NCBI GenBank assembly: GCA_030430155.1
Contig: JAUIFV010000154.1
Coordinates: 1-11,963 of the forward strand
DNA from: Gammaproteobacteria bacterium
GTDB lineage: Bacteria; Pseudomonadota; Gammaproteobacteria; Xanthomonadales; SZUA-5
DNA length: 11,963 nucleotides
Reading direction: 5' to 3'
Below the pieces are notes generated by a model. It saw only the letters and a program-made list of their open reading frames with translations, was not told the DNA's origin and did not search any database. Below, piece after piece: positions 5,312 through 11,963 of this stretch. Positions within the stretch are counted from its first letter, which is position 1, and each line of letters begins with the position of its first letter. A program made the position numbers and the translations under genes.

Positions 5312-5806
5312 CTACGCCGGCTCAAACCGCAAGGCCACCCCATTCATGCAATAGCGCAGCCCGGTCGGCGGCGGGCCGTCGGTGAAGACGTGGCCGAGGT
5401 GGCCACCGCAGCGGCGGCAGTGCACTTCGGTGCGGACCATGAACCAGCCGCGGTCCTCGCGTTCACCCACCGCGTTGGGCAGCGGCTGATAGAAGCTCGG
5501 CCAGCCGGTGCCGGACTCGTACTTGGTCTTGGCGTCGAACAGCGGCAGATCGCAGCCGGCGCAATGGAACACGCCGGCGCGCTTTTCGTCATTCAGCGGG
5601 CTGGTGCCGGCGCGTTCGGTGGCCTCTTCGCGCAGCACCGCATAGGCCTTCGGCGACAGCCGCTCGCGCCACTGCTCCTCACTCAAGGTGAACTCAAACT
5701 GCTCGGCCTCGCTGGCCTTGGCTCCCTTACCCAACAGCGCCATCGTGGTTCCTCCTGCGCTCAGCCAAAGTGCTGAGCTGAGTATGTTCCTGCGGTTCAT
5801 CATCAT
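5312..5806 (-). CDS. msrB: Peptide-methionine (R)-S-oxide reductase MsrB (SelR domain). The long form carries a Tat-like signal peptide. An alternative internal start at 5743 would give a typical cytoplasmic MsrB of about 143 aa.
   Basis: Two CxxC zinc pairs are present (HCAGCD.., HCRRCGG) with the catalytic region RYCMNGVAL. The N-terminus MMMNRRNILSSALWLSAGGTTMALLGKGAKA-SE has an RR motif and AxA site. GGAG lies 5 nt before the MMM start. AGGAGG lies 7 nt before the internal ATG (Met22). Confidence 0.85.
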   Translation of the reverse strand: MMMNRRNILSSALWLSAGGTTMALLGKGAKASEAEQFEFTLSEEQWRERLSPKAYAVLREEATERAGTSPLNDEKRAGVFHCAGCDLPLFDAKTKYESGTGWPSFYQPLPNAVGEREDRGWFMVRTEVHCRRCGGHLGHVFTDGPPPTGLRYCMNGVALRFEPA

Positions 5807-5968
5807 CCAAACTCCAAACTGCTTCGGTAGGCGAGTTTCCGCCTTCGCTACGACATAGACCGGGCTGCCGTCGCGGCGATCACACGCTCAAGACCCAACG
5901 ACCGTGATCGGCATATCTCATGCCCGCCGATCATTTCCCCGTCGGGCAGCGCAGGTTCAGGCTCTACG

Positions 5969-5982
5969 GACGTCTAGACGTC
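5969..5982. promoter_or_regulatory. Perfect 14-bp palindrome GACGTCTAGACGTC. It sits immediately upstream of the cysJ start and RBS.
   Basis: It is an exact dyad, located 18 bp before the proposed GTG start at 6000. Confidence 0.3.
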
Positions 5983-5999
5983 TGCAATGGAGCCAAGCC

Positions 6000-7760
6000 G
6001 TGAGCGCTGTAACCAAGCCACCTGCCGCCGAAGTGCTGGAGCGAGTCGACCAGGCCCTGACCGGGCTCGCCTCGGACAATCTGATTTGGCTCAGCGGCTA
6101 TTTGTACGGTCTGGCTCGTCAGCCTGGCGTCGACAGCGCCGCGGCGCCGGCGGTGGCCAGCGTCGATGTCTATTACGGCTCACAGACCGGCAATGCACGC
6201 CGCCTGGCTGAGGGTCTGGCCGAAGCGCTCAAGGCCGACGGTCGGTCGGCGCGGCTGAAGTCGCTGGGCGAGATTCGCCCGCGTGATTTGCGCGAGGTGG
6301 AGCAGGCGCTGTTTGTGGTCTCCACCCAGGGTGACGGTGAACCGCCCGAGGACTGCCGCGACTTTTTTGCCGCGCTGGACAGCGACCGCGCGCCTCAGCT
6401 GGCCAAGCTGCAGTTCGCCGTGCTCGGCCTGGGCGACTCCAGCTACCCGCAGTTCTGCGCCACCGCCAAGCAGCTGGACTCGCGTCTGCAGGCTTTGGGC
6501 GGCAGCCGCACCCAGGACCGGCTGGACGCCGACCTGGACTATGCGCGCAGCGCCAAGGTCTGGCTGCAGCGCTGGCAGGACCTGCTGCCGGCTGCGGCCG
6601 CGCCGGCACCAACGAAGCTCGCCGCGAGCATCGCGACCTCCCGCCGCAGCGGCCCCGATGCGCCGGTCAGCGCCGAGGTGCTCAGCAACATTCCGCTCAC
6701 CGCGCCCGGCTCGCTGCGTGAGGTGCGCCATCTGGAGCTGGCTTTCGACCCTGCCCTGCTCAGCTATCAGCCGGGCGACGCGCTGGGCCTGCGCTTTAGC
6801 AATCCGTCGCAGCTGGTCGAACCGGTGCTCGCCGCACTGGGTCGGTCGGGCGAGCAGCTGATCGCCCGCGACGGCCGCGAGGCGACCCTGCAGCAGTGGC
6901 TGACGGTAGAGCTGGAGCTCAGCCGCCTCAGCCGGCCGCTGATCGTTGCCTTCGCCGAAGCCACCGGCGCGACCGAGTTGCAGGCGCTGCTGGCGCCCAC
7001 CGCCGGCGAGCAGCTGCGCGAGTTTCTGCGCAGCTCGCAGCTGATCGATCTGCTCACCCGCTATCCCGGCGCCGTCGGCGCCGAGCAGCTGGTCGATCTG
7101 CTGCCGCCGCTGCAGCATCGCTTGTATTCGATCGCGTCCAGTCCAAAGCGCTACGCCGACGAGGTGCATCTGACCGTGGCCCTGCGCAGCGATCAGCGCG
7201 GCGAACGCACGGCTTACGGTGCCTGCTCTACCGCGGTGGCGGGGCTGCAAAGCGGCGACGAAGTCGGCGTCTGGGTGGAACGCAACGAACACTTCCGCCT
7301 GCCCACAGACGACAGCCGCGACGTGATCATGATCGGACCGGGCACCGGTGTGGCGCCCTTCCGCGGCTTCCTGCAGCAGCGCATCGAGAGCGCCGCCGGC
7401 GGGCGCAACTGGCTGGTCTTTGGCGCCCGCAAGCGCTTCACCGATTTCCTCTACCAGACCGAATGGCAGGACGCCCTCAAGCGCGGCCAGCTCGATCGCT
7501 TGTCGCTGGCCTTCTCCCGCGACGGCGAGCAGCGCACCTACGTGCAGGACCGCCTGCGCGCCGAGGGCGCCGAATTCTACGCTTGGCTCCGCGGCGGCGC
7601 CCACGTCTACCTCTGCGGCGACGCCTTCGATATGGCGCCGGCAGTCGAGGCCGCGATCATCGAAATCATCGCCGAACACGGCCAGCTGGAAGCCGAACAG
7701 GCCGCCGAGGCCTTCGCCCAGCTGCGGCGGGAGGGGCGGTGGTTGGTGGATGTGTATTAG
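6000..7760 (+). CDS. cysJ: Sulfite reductase [NADPH] flavoprotein alpha subunit CysJ (flavodoxin domain plus FAD/NADPH domain). The start is uncertain: a GTG at 6000 with a GGAG 7 nt upstream, or the ATG at 5904.
   Basis: The flavodoxin motif VYYGSQTGNARRLAEGL..STQGDGEPPE is present. The FAD/NADPH motifs RLYSIASS, GPGTGVAPFRGF and the C-terminal ..WLVDVY are also present. The protein is collinear with E. coli CysJ starting from the ..LIWLSGYLYG region. Confidence 0.9.
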   Translation: MSAVTKPPAAEVLERVDQALTGLASDNLIWLSGYLYGLARQPGVDSAAAPAVASVDVYYGSQTGNARRLAEGLAEALKADGRSARLKSLGEIRPRDLREVEQALFVVSTQGDGEPPEDCRDFFAALDSDRAPQLAKLQFAVLGLGDSSYPQFCATAKQLDSRLQALGGSRTQDRLDADLDYARSAKVWLQRWQDLLPAAAAPAPTKLAASIATSRRSGPDAPVSAEVLSNIPLTAPGSLREVRHLELAFDPALLSYQPGDALGLRFSNPSQLVEPVLAALGRSGEQLIARDGREATLQQWLTVELELSRLSRPLIVAFAEATGATELQALLAPTAGEQLREFLRSSQLIDLLTRYPGAVGAEQLVDLLPPLQHRLYSIASSPKRYADEVHLTVALRSDQRGERTAYGACSTAVAGLQSGDEVGVWVERNEHFRLPTDDSRDVIMIGPGTGVAPFRGFLQQRIESAAGGRNWLVFGARKRFTDFLYQTEWQDALKRGQLDRLSLAFSRDGEQRTYVQDRLRAEGAEFYAWLRGGAHVYLCGDAFDMAPAVEAAIIEIIAEHGQLEAEQAAEAFAQLRREGRWLVDVY

Positions 7761-7761
7761 C

Positions 7762-7965
7762 GAGGAGCGAAGAAAGGGCCCAGTAGCTAGGAGCGAAGAA
7801 AGGGCCCAGGGCCCAGAGGGGCAACAACGGAGCGGCTTCGCTCTTACTGGGCCCTAAGCCCTGTGCCCTGGGCCCTTCAGCTGGGGCCCGGAGCCCAGAG
7901 GCGCAACAACGAAGCGGCTTCGCTTTCGCTCTTACTGGGCCCTAAGCCCTGGGCCCTGGGCCCTC
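7762..7965. repeat. Repeat cluster of the GGGCCCT family in the cysJ-cysI intergenic gap. It holds two direct copies of aggagcgaagaaagggcccag, then two copies of a unit of about 60 bp (cccagagg.gcaacaacg.agcggcttcgct..cttactgggccctaagccctg.gccctgggccc).
   Basis: Direct repeats are seen at 7768-7789/7789-7810 and at 7811-7875/7893-7965. Each has an internal hairpin (gagcg-gctt-cgctc) and the same right-arm motif as at 3129-3160. Confidence 0.7.
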
Positions 7966-7979
7966 GTCAAGGAACCAAC

Positions 7980-9686
7980 ATGACCGCAACAAACCACAAC
8001 CCAACACCATCCCCCGTCGAAGCCATAAAGAAATCCAGCCAAGGCCTCCGCGGCACGCTGGCTGAGAGCCTGGCTGACGCGCATACCGCCGGGGTGCGGG
8101 AGGACGATGGGCAGTTGATCAAGCTGCACGGGATCTATCAGCAGGATGATCGCGAGCTGCGCGAGCAGCGCCGGCAGCGCAAGCTGGAGCCGGCGATCAG
8201 CTTCATGATCCGGGTGCGGCTGCCGGGCGGGGTGTGCACGCCGATGCAGTGGCAGGCGATGGACGCGCTGGCCGATCGCTACGGCAACGGCACGCTGAAG
8301 CTGACCACCAGACAGACTTTCGAGTTGCAGGGGGTGATCAAGGAGGAACTGGCAGCCACGCTGCAGGCGATGGACCGCGCCCTGCTCGACTCCATTGCCG
8401 CCTGCGGCGACGTTAACCGCAACGTGCTGTGCAGCGCCCAGCCGGAGCACTCCCGGCTGCACGCCCAGGTGCATCGGTGCTCGGTGGACTTGAGCGAGCA
8501 TCTGCTGCCCAAGACCCGCGCCTATCACGAGATCTTCTTAGGCCGCGAGCGAGTCGCCGGTGGCGAGGTGGAGGCCGAACCGATATATGGCGAGACCTAC
8601 CTGCCGCGCAAGTTCAAGACGGTCATCGCGGTGCCGCCGTACAACGATGTGGATCTGTACGCCCACGACCTGGGCTTCATCGCCATTGCCGACGGCGATG
8701 AGCTGCACGGCTTCAATCTGGCCGTCGGCGGCGGCATGGGCACCAGTCACGGCGAGCCGGCGACCTTTCCACGTCTGGCCGATGTGATCGGCTTTCTTAA
8801 GCCCGATCAGCTGCTGCAGGTGGCCACGACGGTGGTCGAGATCCAGCGCGACTTTGGCGATCGCAGCAACCGCAAGCACGCGCGGCTGAAGTACACCATC
8901 GCCGACCGCGGCGTGGAGTGGTTCACGTCCGAGCTGAGCAAGCGGCTGGGCTACGCGTTGCCACCGCCCAAGCCCTTCGTGTTCCTGCATCAGGGCGACC
9001 GCTTCGGCTGGCAGCGTGACAGCGCCGGCCGTTGGCAGCTTACCGTGCGCATCGAAGGCGGGCGGGTGCAGGATGCCGACGGGATCAACCTGCGCAGCGG
9101 GCTCGGTGAGTTGATGCAGATCCACACGGGCCGGCTGCGCATCACCCCGAATCAGAACCTGGTCATCGCCGATATAGCCGATACGCAGCGGGACCAAGTC
9201 GACCAGCTGTTGAAGCGGCACGGCGTGCTCGATCCGCTGGCCTGGTCACCGCTGCGCCGCGACGCCCTGGCCTGCGTGGCGCTGCCGCTGTGTCCGCTGG
9301 CGATGGCCGAAGGTGAGCGCTGGCTGCCGCAGCTGGGCCAGGCCGTAGACGCCCTGCTGGCCAAGCACGGACTGGCCAATCAGCCGCTCAGCCTGCGTAT
9401 CACCGGCTGCCCCAACGGCTGTGCGCGACCCTATCTGGCCGAAATCGGCCTGATCGGCAAGGCGCCCGGTCTGTACAACCTGCTGCTCGGCGGCGACCGG
9501 GTCGGCCAGCGGCTCAACGCGCTGTATCGCGAGAGCGTCGACGAAGCCACCCTGATGGCCGAGCTGGACCAGCTGTTTGCGCGCTGGGCCGGCGAACGCC
9601 AGCCGGAAGAGTCCTTCGGCGATTTTGTGCGCCGAGTTGATCTGGTTTCCGGCACCAGCCCCCATCCGCTATCCGAGGCCGCCTGA
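7980..9686 (+). CDS. cysI: Sulfite reductase hemoprotein beta subunit CysI (siroheme, 4Fe-4S)
   Basis: The ATG at 7980 is preceded by aaggaa. The protein is collinear with E. coli CysI (HGIYQQDDRE.., TYLPRKFKT.., and the cluster cysteines ACVALPLCPLAMAE ... TGCPNGCARP). The ORF-track start at 7863 lies inside the repeat cluster and is rejected. Confidence 0.92.
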   Translation: MTATNHNPTPSPVEAIKKSSQGLRGTLAESLADAHTAGVREDDGQLIKLHGIYQQDDRELREQRRQRKLEPAISFMIRVRLPGGVCTPMQWQAMDALADRYGNGTLKLTTRQTFELQGVIKEELAATLQAMDRALLDSIAACGDVNRNVLCSAQPEHSRLHAQVHRCSVDLSEHLLPKTRAYHEIFLGRERVAGGEVEAEPIYGETYLPRKFKTVIAVPPYNDVDLYAHDLGFIAIADGDELHGFNLAVGGGMGTSHGEPATFPRLADVIGFLKPDQLLQVATTVVEIQRDFGDRSNRKHARLKYTIADRGVEWFTSELSKRLGYALPPPKPFVFLHQGDRFGWQRDSAGRWQLTVRIEGGRVQDADGINLRSGLGELMQIHTGRLRITPNQNLVIADIADTQRDQVDQLLKRHGVLDPLAWSPLRRDALACVALPLCPLAMAEGERWLPQLGQAVDALLAKHGLANQPLSLRITGCPNGCARPYLAEIGLIGKAPGLYNLLLGGDRVGQRLNALYRESVDEATLMAELDQLFARWAGERQPEESFGDFVRRVDLVSGTSPHPLSEAA

Positions 9687-10438
9687 TGACTCTGTTCAGC
9701 CCCTGTGACGAACTGCTGGCCGAATCCAGCGCCGAACTGCTGCTAAGCGAACCCGGCGCGCAGTGCTTGAGAAACTACAACAGACAGCTGGCCGAGCTGA
9801 GCGCCGAGCAGCGTGTGCGTTGGGCACTCGACCACCTGCCCGGCAGCTTCGTGCTCAGCTCCAGCTTCGGCGCGCAGTCGGCGCTGCTGCTGCACATGGT
9901 CACCCGGATCCGGCCGCAGCTGCCGGTGGTGGTGGTCGATACCGGCTATCTGTTCCCGGACACCTACCGCTTCATCGATCAGCTCACCGAGCGTCTGCAG
10001 CTGAACCTGGTGGTCGCCAGACCGGCACATTCGCCGGCCTGGTATCTGGCCCGCCACGGTGAACTGTGGAGCCAGGGCGTGGACGGAATCCAGACTTACA
10101 ACCGACTGCACAAGGTCGAACCCATGCAGCAGGCCCTGGAGCAGCTCGATTGCGGTACCTGGATCGCCGGCTTGCGTCGCGATCAGTCGTCCAGCCGAGC
10201 TGAGATCCAGCCGCTGGCGGTGCACAACGGCCGCTACAAGCTGCACCCCATCTTCGACTGGAGCGATCGCCAGATCGGCCGCTATCTGAGCGAGCACGAA
10301 CTGCCCTACCACCCGCTGTGGGAGCAGGGCTATGTGTCCATCGGCGACACCCACACCACCGCCCCGCTGGGCGAAGGCATGAGCGCCGAGCAAACGCGCT
10401 TTTTCGGCGTGAAGCGGGAGTGCGGGCTGCACGAGTAG
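9686..10438 (+). CDS. cysH: Phosphoadenosine-phosphosulfate (PAPS) reductase CysH, of the E. coli type
   Basis: The motif LSSSFGAQSALLLHMV (PP-loop) is present, and the C-terminus ..RFFGVKRECGLHE matches the E. coli ECGLH motif. Its ATG overlaps the cysI TGA by 1 nt (TGATG), which indicates translational coupling. Confidence 0.92.
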   Translation: MTLFSPCDELLAESSAELLLSEPGAQCLRNYNRQLAELSAEQRVRWALDHLPGSFVLSSSFGAQSALLLHMVTRIRPQLPVVVVDTGYLFPDTYRFIDQLTERLQLNLVVARPAHSPAWYLARHGELWSQGVDGIQTYNRLHKVEPMQQALEQLDCGTWIAGLRRDQSSSRAEIQPLAVHNGRYKLHPIFDWSDRQIGRYLSEHELPYHPLWEQGYVSIGDTHTTAPLGEGMSAEQTRFFGVKRECGLHE

Positions 10439-10536: not shown

Positions 10537-11963
10537 ATGATGCGTGTAAGGACTGGCGCAACCTTAGCTGCGCGAGTCCTGCTCATGTTGATCCCATCCC
10601 TGCTGCTTAGCGCCTGCGTGGCCTCCACCGCGATGCCCGAAGCCGAGTTGTATTGGTCCAATAACCCGGAGACCAAGGCGCTCAAGGCTGGCGCCACCGA
10701 GAGCCACTACCGCATCGGTATGACCCGTTCCCAGCTGGACGCCGAGTTCAGCACCCAGCTGGGTCTGGGTCGGCAGCTGGTCGACATCGAAATGCAGTTC
10801 AACGGCAGCGCCAACGTCTTCGCTGGCGTCTGGAAGCCGGTCAACGGGCTGGTGTTTCCATTGTTCGAAGCCACCCAGGCGCAGTACGACGACTGGCTGT
10901 CCGACATGGCTGCGCGCAACGGGCGTTTCCTCGATGTAGAGATCACCGTGCGCAACGGCGCCTACCGATTCAACGGATTGTTTGTGCAGGACGGCGACGA
11001 TTATGACCACGACATCCGCACCCGGCGCAGCGAGTCTGCCTTTCGCGATCTGCTTGCCGGCCACGCCCGCGATGGCTACCAGCTGATCGACATCGAGGTT
11101 GGTCCCAATAACTCCACCGGGGCGACCATCTTCAGCGGGGTGTGGGTGCGTCACCCCAACCAGCCGAAAACCGCGGTGATTTATGACCTGGAGCCGGCCG
11201 AGTTCAGCGATCTGCTCAATCCGATGTCCGGTCGGGTGCTGGATGTGGAGCGCTACGCCAGCGATCTGCACGGTGAGACCCGCTACGCAATCATTTTCGC
11301 GATGGTTCCCGGCGGCACCTGGCGGGTGGCGCGCGGGGTCAGTCAGTCCACTCTGGCGACGCTGCAGAACAGCACCGCCGACGCCGACACCTTTCTGATC
11401 GATCTGGATCCCAACCCCTCGGTATCGAACTTCGATGCGGTCTGGGGCGAGCAGCCCAAGTCGCTCCGTGAGGTGGCGCCGATCGCCGCCGAAACCAACC
11501 TGCTCGCCCCGTCGGCGACGCTGCAGAATCTGATCAGCGCTTATGAAACCGGCGGTGACCGCAGCAACATCGTCGGGCTCTACGCGCGCAACCTGCGCAC
11601 CGGGACCAGCGTCGGCTGGCGCATGGACGAGTTCTTCCCGCTGGCCTCGCTGATGAAGTCCGCGGTGCACTTCCGGTTCTGGAATGCGGTGGGCAATGGC
11701 GATCTGAACGCGCTATCGGCCGCGCAGTACACCCGTTCGCTGAACGAACGCGACGATTGGTTCTGCGGCAATGGATCTGATGGTCGGTTGAGTTCGAGCA
11801 ACTTCGGTCAGAGCTTCACCCTGGATCGCTACTCGCGCTTCATGATGGAGGTGTCCGACAACGCCGCGACCTCGCTGCTGGTCGACCATCCCAGCTTCGG
11901 CACCGCCAATCTGGATCACACCCTGACCGAATGGCTGGCGTCGATGGATGGCGTGGGTCGCGG
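10537..11963 (+). CDS. Lipoprotein, partial because it runs off the 3' end of the window. It has a lipobox (LLSAC), then four tandem BamE/BLIP-like repeats of about 50 aa, then a class-A beta-lactamase-like serine-hydrolase domain (SxxK and SDN motifs present).
   Basis: The frame is open from 10537 (ATGATG; alternative ATG at 10585) to the window edge. It is missing from the ORF track only because no stop codon falls inside the window. Motifs include the signal ..LAARVLLMLIPSLLLSAC and GMTRSQLDAEF, matching the BamE/BLIP motif GMTxxQV. Repeats such as YQLIDIEV..IFSGVW are present. The serine-hydrolase motifs are FPLASLMKS and MMEVSDNAATSLL, a TEM-like SDN loop. Confidence 0.7.
   Translation, partial: MMRVRTGATLAARVLLMLIPSLLLSACVASTAMPEAELYWSNNPETKALKAGATESHYRIGMTRSQLDAEFSTQLGLGRQLVDIEMQFNGSANVFAGVWKPVNGLVFPLFEATQAQYDDWLSDMAARNGRFLDVEITVRNGAYRFNGLFVQDGDDYDHDIRTRRSESAFRDLLAGHARDGYQLIDIEVGPNNSTGATIFSGVWVRHPNQPKTAVIYDLEPAEFSDLLNPMSGRVLDVERYASDLHGETRYAIIFAMVPGGTWRVARGVSQSTLATLQNSTADADTFLIDLDPNPSVSNFDAVWGEQPKSLREVAPIAAETNLLAPSATLQNLISAYETGGDRSNIVGLYARNLRTGTSVGWRMDEFFPLASLMKSAVHFRFWNAVGNGDLNALSAAQYTRSLNERDDWFCGNGSDGRLSSSNFGQSFTLDRYSRFMMEVSDNAATSLLVDHPSFGTANLDHTLTEWLASMDGVGR

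What the first reader, a model, noticed from the sequence alone, without database searches (positions are those of the whole stretch)
10537..11963. Lipoprotein fusing four BamE/BLIP-like tandem repeats to a class-A beta-lactamase-like domain
The gene is absent from the ORF track only because no stop codon falls inside the window. After a lipobox (LLSAC) come four repeats of about 50 aa of the form helix-Gly-beta strands (..F..LL....G.(Y/R).L(I/V)D(I/V)E.....(F/Y).G(V/L)(W/F)). The first repeat carries GMTRSQLDAEF, the signature GMTxxQV motif shared by BamE (SmpA/OmlA) and the two domains of the beta-lactamase inhibitor protein BLIP. The C-terminal portion has the class-A serine beta-lactamase/PBP motifs FPLASLMKS (SxxK) and MMEVSDNAATSLL (SDN loop), with TEM-like spacing. 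A single lipoprotein that combines BLIP-like modules with a beta-lactamase-fold hydrolase is an unusual architecture. Candidate roles are a self-regulated or substrate-targeting peptidase or beta-lactamase, or a cell-wall sensor. The fold is also shared by non-lactamase peptidases.
Basis: partly seen in the sequence, partly recalled or inferred. Interest (0 to 1): 0.65.

Follow-up and report, generated by a model that had tools for sequence, protein, structure and literature searches.

The report
Bacterial polyglycine-hydrolase-like serine hydrolase gene
The cut-off gene at the window's end encodes a rare secreted bacterial enzyme that joins the five-repeat barrel known from fungal polyglycine hydrolases, not BamE/BLIP modules, to a class-A/PBP-A-type serine hydrolase domain, so it is probably a targeted peptidase and not a beta-lactamase with built-in inhibitors.

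Summary

BTRD1 joined to a beta-lactamase-fold domain is a recurrent architecture: 50 of 67 BTRD1 proteins sampled have it. My best reading is a secreted or surface-tethered acyl-serine peptidase whose barrel positions the substrate, built on the same logic as fungal polyglycine hydrolases but on a different scaffold. The substrate is unknown. Novelty: new variant of a known kind, of moderate interest.

The parts
10537..10617 (+). Start codon and signal peptide with lipobox (aa 1-27; L-S-A-C, Cys27)
   Evidence: This is the first ATG after an in-frame stop. The n-region is MMRVRTGATLAARV, the h-region LLMLIPSLLL, and the lipobox LSAC. The cysteine is not conserved in close relatives, so lipid anchoring may be specific to this organism.
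10618..10695 (+). Low-confidence linker between the signal peptide and the first repeat (aa 28-53)
   Evidence: pLDDT is below 50 for model residues 1-17, which correspond to aa 36-52. The segment aligns poorly across the family.
10696..10845 (+). BTRD1 repeat 1 (aa 54-103), strand-helix-strand-strand
   Evidence: This is the best Pfam PF17660 stretch, aa 58-100. Model elements are E57-62, H64-76, E80-88 and E93-100 (numbering offset +35). hhalign to repeats 2, 3 and 5 gives 94-98% probability.
10846..11001 (+). BTRD1 repeat 2 (aa 104-155)
   Evidence: Model elements are E105-112, H114-125, E129-139 and E142-151. The GRxLDxE motif is conserved in at least 90% of family members.
11002..11166 (+). 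BTRD1 repeat 3 (aa 156-210)
   Evidence: Model elements are E157-164, H166-178, E182-190 and E197-205. IDxE and GVW...PNQP are conserved.
11167..11316 (+). BTRD1 repeat 4 (aa 211-260)
   Evidence: Model elements are E212-218, H220-226, E233-242 and E247-255. GRxLDxERY is invariant or nearly so.
11317..11454 (+). BTRD1 repeat 5 (aa 261-306); it closes the five-repeat barrel
Evidence: Model elements are E263-268, H270-280, E286-293 and E298-304. hhalign to repeats 1 and 3 gives 95-97% probability.
11455..11556 (+). Inter-domain linker and N-terminal helix of the catalytic domain (aa 307-340)
   Evidence: It aligns with the N-terminal helix of PBP-A and class A enzymes. The corresponding P0001 model elements are E304-306 and H310-319.
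11557..11963 (+). First ~135 aa of the class-A/PBP-A-type serine hydrolase domain, cut by the window end. It holds the Ser371-x-x-Lys374 nucleophile motif (11647-11658) and Ser440-Asp-Asn442 (11854-11862).
   Evidence: Pfam PF13354 covers aa 347-466 at E 2.8e-11, matching profile positions 1-110 of 214. PBP-A (2j9o) matches at E 3e-6. Both motifs are invariant in 30 of 30 family members. The remainder is seen only in homologs 65-88% identical: the ~90-aa omega-region insert, K-G-G, the CARDB-like domain and the GFE tail.

Best explanation
The gene encodes the N-terminal 475 aa of an ~810-aa exported multi-domain acyl-serine hydrolase.

Domain order:
1. A signal peptide, here with a lipobox.
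2. A barrel of five BTRD1 strand-helix-strand-strand repeats, the same fold as the N-domain of fungal polyglycine hydrolases.
3. A class-A/PBP-A-type SxxK domain whose omega loop is replaced by an insert of about 90 aa.
4. In homologs, a CARDB-like Ig domain and a conserved GFE C-terminus.

Proposed mechanism:
- Ser371 is the nucleophile, assisted by Lys374 and the Ser440-Asp-Asn triad. The K-G-G strand completes the active site.
- The enzyme forms an acyl-enzyme with a peptide (amide) substrate and hydrolyses it.
- The five-repeat barrel, and probably the Ig domain, act as an exosite or anchoring module that holds a polymeric substrate. This is the role proposed for the N-domain of polyglycine hydrolases.

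I take it to be a secreted or surface-tethered endopeptidase, not a beta-lactamase.

Shown: the gene, the domain identities, the folds and the motif conservation. Inferred: peptidase chemistry, the exosite role, the cellular location and everything about the substrate.
For: Domains:
- Pfam gives PF17660 at 37.4 bits and PF13354 at 43.6 bits, both above their cutoffs.
- There are five related repeats.

Evidence that it is catalytic:
- S353, K356, S422, D423, N424, K601 and G603 (P0001 numbering) are invariant in 29-30 of 30 members drawn from several phyla.

Evidence that it is a peptidase and not a lactamase:
- The NCBIfam class A equivalog scores 25-50 bits against a cutoff of 200.
- The closest solved sequence relative is PBP-A (E 3e-17 with the family profile). 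PBP-A is a DD-carboxy/endopeptidase that lacks the omega-loop Glu (PMC11189452).
- PBP-A's 14-residue omega segment corresponds to about 88 profile positions in this family.
- hhalign places a hydrophobic residue (Ile in 23 of 30) opposite TEM Glu166.
- The residue after the motif-3 Lys is Gly in 22 of 30 members, where beta-lactamases and PBPs have Thr or Ser.
- Fungal polyglycine hydrolases, which have the same N-domain and a beta-lactamase fold, are proteases with no nitrocefin activity (PMC9912923).
- In other proteins BTRD1 partners with PF00144 (37/67), PF13354 (13/67), M23, astacin, reprolysin, subtilase and type-IX secretion (Por_Secre_tail) sorting domains.
- Family members also carry CARDB, FG-GAP, TSP3 and Calx-beta domains. 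These suggest an extracellular setting.
Against: - No biochemical data exist for any bacterial member.
- The window holds only the first 135 aa of the catalytic domain, so motif 3, the insert and the Ig domain are inferred from homologs 65-88% identical.
- The omega-region alignment needs three gaps and has low confidence. An invariant Asp (D469) or the mostly conserved Glu (E496, 23/30) in the insert could reach the active site and act like Glu166.
- The function of the polyglycine hydrolase N-domain is itself only speculated.
- A lipobox followed by Val at +2 in a gammaproteobacterium is equally compatible with a periplasm-facing outer-membrane lipoprotein that acts on the cell's own peptidoglycan.
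- There is no conserved gene neighbourhood to hint at a substrate.
Confidence: 0.6

Rival explanations
1. It is a peptidoglycan DD-carboxypeptidase or DD-endopeptidase, a low-molecular-weight PBP like cyanobacterial PBP-A. It would be tethered to the outer membrane by its lipid anchor and trim stem peptides, either of the cell's own wall or of a competitor's. The BTRD1 barrel would bind the sacculus.
For: - PBP-A is a DD-carboxy/endopeptidase (PMC11189452).
- The window protein has a lipobox.
- BTRD1 also occurs with M23 peptidases and DPBB lytic-transglycosylase-like domains.
Against: - K-G-G replaces K-T/S-G, which removes the hydroxyl that normally contacts the substrate or beta-lactam carboxylate. 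This role of the hydroxyl is established knowledge of class A enzymes and PBPs; I did not test it here.
- The family is rare and patchy, with about 29 clusters among 1.84 billion representatives and all loci in uncultured genomes (MAGs) from scattered phyla.
- It is not linked to cell-wall genes.
- The accessory domains (CARDB, FG-GAP, TSP3) suggest an extracellular location.
- The lipobox is not conserved.
Confidence: 0.2
2. It is a genuine class A beta-lactamase carrying accessory domains. An acidic residue from the insert (D469 or E496) would stand in for Glu166 as the deacylation base.
For: - SxxK, SDN and K-x-G are invariant.
- An invariant Asp and a mostly conserved Glu lie in the region that replaces the omega loop.
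Against: - The NCBIfam class A equivalog scores 25-50 bits against a cutoff of 200.
- No ExxLN motif is present in the family or in its nearest stand-alone relatives.
- The omega loop is replaced.
- Gly stands at position 235.
- Polyglycine hydrolases, the characterised enzymes with this N-domain, have no lactamase activity.
- An 810-aa architecture with adhesion-type domains is not what resistance enzymes look like.
Confidence: 0.1
3. It is an esterase or other non-peptide acyl hydrolase built on the class A scaffold, like ORF12 of the clavulanate cluster.
For: - A few BTRD1 proteins carry GDSL lipase domains.
Against: - The similarity to ORF12 is no higher than to many class A enzymes.
- Most BTRD1 partners are peptidases or PF00144 domains.
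Confidence: 0.07
4. One reading: BamE/BLIP-like modules fused to a beta-lactamase-like domain, so that the enzyme is self-inhibited or self-regulated. A related variant is a non-catalytic cell-wall sensor.
For: - A GMTxxQ-like string occurs in repeat 1.
Against: - Pfam gives no SmpA_OmlA or BLIP hit at E <= 10.
- GMT is not conserved beyond the closest relatives.
- The repeat topology is strand-helix-strand-strand.
- All catalytic motifs are invariant, which argues for an active enzyme.
- No transmembrane or signalling domain is present in any homolog.
Confidence: 0.03

Closest known systems
Fungal polyglycine hydrolases (Bz-cmp, Es-cmp, Fvan-cmp; PDB 7tpu; PMC9912923)
   Same: - In both, the barrel is followed by a serine beta-lactamase-fold domain that keeps SxxK.
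- The overall logic is the same: accessory barrel plus acyl-serine hydrolase.
   Different: - The source is bacterial (uncultured Lysobacterales/Xanthomonadales-like), not fungal.
- This family has a ~90-aa insert in place of the omega loop, an extra CARDB-like domain and a GFE tail.
- Sequence identity to 7tpu is only 12% in the N-domain.
- The substrate is unknown.
PBP-A (Tll2115) of Thermosynechococcus elongatus (2j7v/2j9o)
   Same: - It is the closest solved sequence relative (E 3e-6 with the single sequence, 3e-17 with the family profile).
- It shares the class A fold.
- SxxK, SDN and the GxN(S/T)xxPR segment are shared.
- Neither has a recognisable omega-loop catalytic Glu.
   Different: - PBP-A has no BTRD1 barrel and no Ig domain.
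- It has a short omega segment (14 residues against ~88 profile positions here).
- It has K-T-G where this family has K-G-G.
- It is a peptidoglycan DD-peptidase specific for amidated muropeptides (PMC11189452). No activity is known for this family.
Class A beta-lactamases (TEM-1, KPC-2, LRA-5 and others)
   Same: - Motif 1 (S70xxK73) and motif 2 (S130DN) are shared, as are the Lys and Gly of motif 3.
   Different: - The family fails NCBI's class A model (25-50 bits against a cutoff of 200).
- The Glu166/Asn170 omega loop is not recognisable.
- Gly replaces Thr/Ser235.
- The protein is three times larger and has three extra modules.
Other bacterial BTRD1 (PF17660) proteins, annotated in databases but uncharacterised
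   Same: - They share the repeat family.
- 50 of the 67 sampled also carry a beta-lactamase-fold domain, and 13 of those have PF13354.
[quoted passage not shown]
   Different: - Their catalytic domains do not match this family strongly; they hit the query only through the repeats.
- This subfamily is defined by the omega-region insert, K-G-G, the CARDB-like domain and the GFE tail.
- It amounts to about 29 clusters at E < 1e-30 among 1.84 billion representatives.
BamE (SmpA/OmlA) and BLIP
   Same: Only a short string in repeat 1 (GMTRSQL) resembles their GMTxxQV motif. They are also small alpha/beta modules.
   Different: - The motif is not conserved in the family. It sits at a helix N-cap, where repeats 2-5 have T/S-x-x-Q/E/A-type caps (repeat sequences).

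Membership tests
Pfam PF17660 BTRD1 (polyglycine hydrolase-like structural repeat) | Score above Pfam's gathering threshold | tested here: met
   37.4 bits against a cutoff of 23, E 2.4e-9, two stretches. 16 of 22 family members also match at E <= 0.001.
Pfam PF17660 BTRD1 (polyglycine hydrolase-like structural repeat) | Tandem strand-helix-strand-strand units of ~44-50 aa that form the five-repeat barrel seen in 7tpu | tested here: met
   [not shown]
Polyglycine hydrolases (fungal chitinase-modifying proteins) | N-domain of five structural repeats | tested here: met
Polyglycine hydrolases (fungal chitinase-modifying proteins) | C-domain of the class-C/PBP (PF00144) type with the Tyr150 analogue | tested here: not met
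   [not shown]
Polyglycine hydrolases (fungal chitinase-modifying proteins) | Cleavage of Gly-Gly bonds in polyglycine linkers of plant class IV chitinases | not testable with these tools
   This needs an enzyme assay. I searched for no candidate substrate.
Pfam PF13354 Beta-lactamase2 (class-A-type serine hydrolase fold) | Score above the gathering threshold, and the class A fold | tested here: met
   [not shown]
Class A beta-lactamase (bona fide, NCBIfam NF033103 equivalog) | Score above the curated cutoff of 200 bits | tested here: not met
   25.2 bits for the window fragment and 33-50 bits for full-length homologs.
Class A beta-lactamase (bona fide, NCBIfam NF033103 equivalog) | Ser70-x-x-Lys73 and Ser130-Asp-Asn132 | tested here: met
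   S371/K374 and S440-D-N442 are in the window. Both motifs are invariant in 30 of 30 members.
Class A beta-lactamase (bona fide, NCBIfam NF033103 equivalog) | Omega loop with Glu166 (deacylation base) and Asn170 | tested here: inconclusive
   The region lies beyond the window end. In homologs the omega segment is replaced by ~88 profile positions. hhalign puts Ile opposite Glu166, but across three gaps. No ExxLN motif is found. An invariant D469 and E496 (23/30) lie in the insert and could substitute; testing that needs 3-D coordinates.
Class A beta-lactamase (bona fide, NCBIfam NF033103 equivalog) | Lys234-Thr/Ser235-Gly236 | tested here: not met
   In homologs the motif is K-G-G. K is present in 29/29 and the last G in 29/29. 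The middle residue is Gly in 22 of 30 members and Ser in only 2. The window itself ends before this motif.
BamE (PF04355 SmpA_OmlA) / BLIP (PF07467) | Profile match or fold match of the repeats | tested here: not met
   [not shown]
Bacterial lipoprotein | Signal peptide ending in the lipobox [LVI][ASTVI][GAS]C | tested here: met
   LSAC is at aa 24-27, after a basic n-region and a hydrophobic h-region. This is a sequence pattern only. Three of the 30 family sequences (the window protein and two distant members) match the pattern, and the close relatives lack the Cys. Actual lipidation was not testable.

The most novel reading that the evidence does not exclude
The five-repeat BTRD1 barrel is a portable exosite that has been fused independently to two different beta-lactamase-fold scaffolds: class-C-like in fungal polyglycine hydrolases and many bacteria, and class-A/PBP-A-like here. 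Each fusion would turn the scaffold into a linker- or polymer-specific endopeptidase. On this reading the present family is a bacterial functional counterpart of polyglycine hydrolases. Its omega loop was swapped for a ~90-aa insert that supplies a new catalytic acid (invariant D469) and a narrowed substrate groove. The ring of conserved Asp/Glu residues on the barrel (GRxLDxE in each repeat) would be the ligand- or cation-binding face.
Probability: 0.2. Interest if true: 0.6.

Novelty: new variant of a known kind. Interest (0 to 1): 0.35.

Why it matters
- Polyglycine hydrolases are the only characterised enzymes with this N-domain, and the role of that domain is still unknown.
- A bacterial family that pairs the same barrel with a different SxxK scaffold shows the pairing is recurrent and probably functional. 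It also offers an easily expressed bacterial system for asking what the barrel binds.
- For resistance-gene surveillance, this is a useful negative example. The protein has class A motifs 1 and 2 and a class A fold, yet it should not be called a beta-lactamase.
- The practical stakes are modest. The domains are already in Pfam, NCBI already labels the family 'serine hydrolase', and no phenotype is attached to it.

Tried and rejected
2. I tried to recover the rest of the gene and failed.
   - An exact 38-mer from the window end found nothing in metagenome contigs.
   - A protein-pattern scan of the same collection found only a 1.5-kb contig with a 77%-identical fragment.
   - The genome collection gave at best an 81%-identical Lysobacterales MAG.
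3. I looked for conserved gene neighbours with an all-against-all BLASTP of ORFs from 12 loci.
   - Only the gene itself is shared by all loci.
   - The window's upstream cysJIH genes are absent from the homolog loci.
   - A 619-aa protein of unknown function recurs only in the Lysobacterales and Wenzhouxiangellaceae loci.
4. A promoter and terminator scan of the cysH-to-gene spacer found nothing.
5. A Foldseek search of AFDB50 for annotated proteins of the same architecture could not run, because the library was unavailable.
6. I could not locate a Glu166 surrogate in 3-D, because model coordinates are not exposed to scripts. Only sequence and profile alignment was possible.
7. NCBIfam offered nothing for the C-terminal GFE tail.
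8. Literature searches for BTRD1, PF17660 and polyglycine hydrolase found no study of a bacterial member.
Full report
**Observation.**
- The frame that starts at ATG 10537 stays open for 475 codons to the last base of the window. This ATG is the first start after an in-frame stop.
- The gene lies 98 nt downstream of a cysJ-cysI-cysH cluster (5904-10438). No promoter or terminator consensus falls in the spacer.
- The N-terminus is a textbook lipoprotein signal: a basic n-region, a hydrophobic core, and L-S-A-C with Cys27.
- Only three of the 30 family sequences (the window protein and two distant members) have such a cysteine. The closest relatives have ordinary signal peptides.

**The repeats.**
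- Pfam assigns them to PF17660, BTRD1, 'polyglycine hydrolase-like structural repeat' (37.4 bits, cutoff 23). It reports no BamE (SmpA_OmlA) or BLIP match at E <= 10.
- I cut the family alignment into five segments: aa 54-103, 104-155, 156-210, 211-260 and 261-306. Profile-profile comparison relates nine of the ten pairs at 68-98% probability, with E from 4e-13 to 5e-5. So there are five repeats, not four.
- I made an AlphaFold2 model of the window's own residues 36-312, using 30 aligned family sequences. It has mean pLDDT 90.2 and consists of five strand-helix-strand-strand units.
- The 7tpu paper describes its N-domain as five quasi-identical EHEE repeats of 44 residues that form a barrel-like fold, novel at the time (PMC9912923).
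- The 'GMT' signature is conserved only in the four nearest relatives. It sits at the N-cap of the repeat helix.

**The catalytic domain.**
- The window holds its first ~135 residues. They match PF13354 (profile positions 1-110 of 214, E 2.8e-11) and PBP-A/Tll2115 (E 3e-6).
- Homologs supply the remainder: 13 in the 90%-clustered protein database and about 29 clusters at E < 1e-30 among 1.84 billion 50%-identity representatives.
- Full-length members are about 800-850 aa, and some reach 2600 aa.
- The model of P0001 (81% identical, 809 aa) has pLDDT 89.5 and pTM 0.88.
- Foldseek's top hit is PBP-A, followed by class A enzymes such as KPC.
- In 30 aligned members from several phyla, Ser-x-x-Lys, Ser-Asp-Asn, and the Lys and final Gly of motif 3 are invariant. 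The middle residue of motif 3 is Gly in 22 of 30, giving K-G-G.

**Why it is not a bona fide class A beta-lactamase.**
- NCBI's class A equivalog model scores 25-50 bits against a cutoff of 200.
- A family profile aligns to PBP-A in two blocks. Between them, PBP-A's 14-residue omega segment faces about 88 profile positions.
- hhalign against a TEM-1-anchored profile gives 99.9% probability overall. The alignment puts a hydrophobic residue opposite Glu166, but across three gaps.
- No ExxLN motif is present.
- An invariant Asp (D469, in SIxDVDR) and a Glu conserved in 23 of 30 members (WAxEPxFR) lie in the insert. Whether either reaches the active site could not be checked without coordinates.

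**Wider architecture.**
- After the catalytic domain, homologs carry a seven-strand beta sandwich. It matches CARDB above threshold in some members.
- In 14 of 34 members there is a conserved C-terminal [IL]F.[DN]GFE, sometimes continued as GFESGDTxAWS.
- Longer members add FG-GAP, MopE, TSP3 and Calx-beta repeats.
- I scanned 67 proteins that hit the query mainly or only through the BTRD1 repeats. Of these, 37 carry PF00144 and 13 carry PF13354. Others carry M23, astacin, reprolysin, subtilase, DPBB, GDSL lipase or Por_Secre_tail domains.
- BTRD1 is therefore a common accessory of secreted hydrolases, above all beta-lactamase-fold ones.
[quoted passage not shown] It states that none of these proteins has been characterised.

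**Distribution and context.**
- The genome collection yields ten family loci, all from MAGs: Lysobacterales, Wenzhouxiangellaceae, a bin labelled Halomonas, Acidobacteriota, Thermoanaerobaculia, Anaerolineae (two copies), Planctomycetia and Sumerlaeota.
- This count is a lower bound, because only one peptide pattern was used in that scan.
- Neighbouring genes are not conserved.
- The window has about 65% G+C. Its closest relatives are from Xanthomonadales/Lysobacterales MAGs. The source contig was not found.

**Mechanism.**
- *Shown:* the gene is real, the domain identities and folds are as described, and the catalytic motifs are invariant.
- *Inferred:* the protein is an exported acyl-serine hydrolase. 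Ser371 attacks an amide bond, assisted by Lys374 and the SDN triad. The five-repeat barrel, and probably the Ig domain, hold or position a polymeric substrate, as has been proposed for polyglycine hydrolases.
- I favour a peptidase over a beta-lactamase for these reasons:
  - the family fails the class A model;
  - the omega loop is remodelled;
  - motif 3 is K-G-G;
  - the nearest solved relative is PBP-A, a DD-peptidase that lacks the omega-loop Glu (PMC11189452);
  - polyglycine hydrolases are proteases with no nitrocefin activity;
  - BTRD1's other partner domains are mostly peptidases.
- Between an extracellular protein- or polymer-directed endopeptidase and a peptidoglycan DD-peptidase, the accessory domains and the patchy distribution lean towards the former. 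The lipobox and the PBP-A relationship keep the latter alive.

**Verdict.**
- The BamE/BLIP interpretation, and the self-inhibition idea built on it, are wrong.
- The protein is a rare bacterial variant of the polyglycine-hydrolase type of architecture, built on a class-A/PBP-A scaffold instead of a class-C-like one. Databases annotate it only as 'serine hydrolase', and no member has been studied experimentally.
- Interest is moderate, at 0.35.

Noticed in passing
Homologs only (P0001 aa 803-809 and others); beyond the window end: 14 of 34 family members carry, at or near the C-terminus, a conserved [IL]F.[DN]GFE. Seven of them end exactly there; the others continue, mostly as GFESGDTxAWS. It looks like a C-terminal tag or sorting signal. 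NCBIfam and Pfam gave no match for it.
   Followed up: partly
window 10696-11454 (the repeats); P0001 D66, R113/D116/E118, D168/E170, R216/D219/E221, D272: Each BTRD1 repeat carries a (G)RxLxDxE motif on its second strand, invariant or above 90% conserved in the family. The wider BTRD1 consensus GYRLxDxExY shows the same motif. Five such repeats would place a ring of acidic residues on one face of the barrel, which could be a cation- or ligand-binding site. I could not inspect it in 3-D.
   Followed up: partly
window 5904-10438 (+): A complete assimilatory sulfate-reduction cluster lies immediately upstream. It has cysJ-like flavoprotein (5904-7760), cysI-like sulfite reductase hemoprotein (7863-9686) and cysH-like PAPS reductase (9686-10438, its start overlapping the cysI stop). 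It is not linked to the hydrolase gene in any homolog locus.
   Followed up: partly
window 1772-5776: Other genes in the window are an SPFH/Band 7 protein (1772-2905 +), a glucose/sorbosone dehydrogenase (3167-4342 -) and a molybdopterin-binding oxidoreductase (4362-5045 -). A 220-aa ORF (5114-5776 +) has no Pfam match.
   Followed up: no
window 10564-11670 (-): A 368-aa antisense ORF overlaps the gene and 'matches' antisense ORFs in five homolog loci. It is a shadow ORF of a conserved high-GC gene and is not evidence for a second gene.
   Followed up: partly
L001 5258-7117 / L002 546-2405 / L004 5129-7072: A 619-aa protein with no Pfam domain lies near the hydrolase gene in the Lysobacterales and Wenzhouxiangellaceae MAG loci. 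It is absent from the window and from the other phyla. In L001 and L002 a 783-aa beta-helix/PMP-like protein sits directly upstream of the gene.
   Followed up: no
P0076 (303 aa): This is a stand-alone relative of the catalytic domain with no BTRD1 repeats. It has FYLASVTK, a shorter omega-region insert (TSIATLDKNIW), GLNSASP and SKGGDK motifs. The remodelled catalytic subfamily may therefore predate, or exist apart from, the fusion.
   Followed up: no
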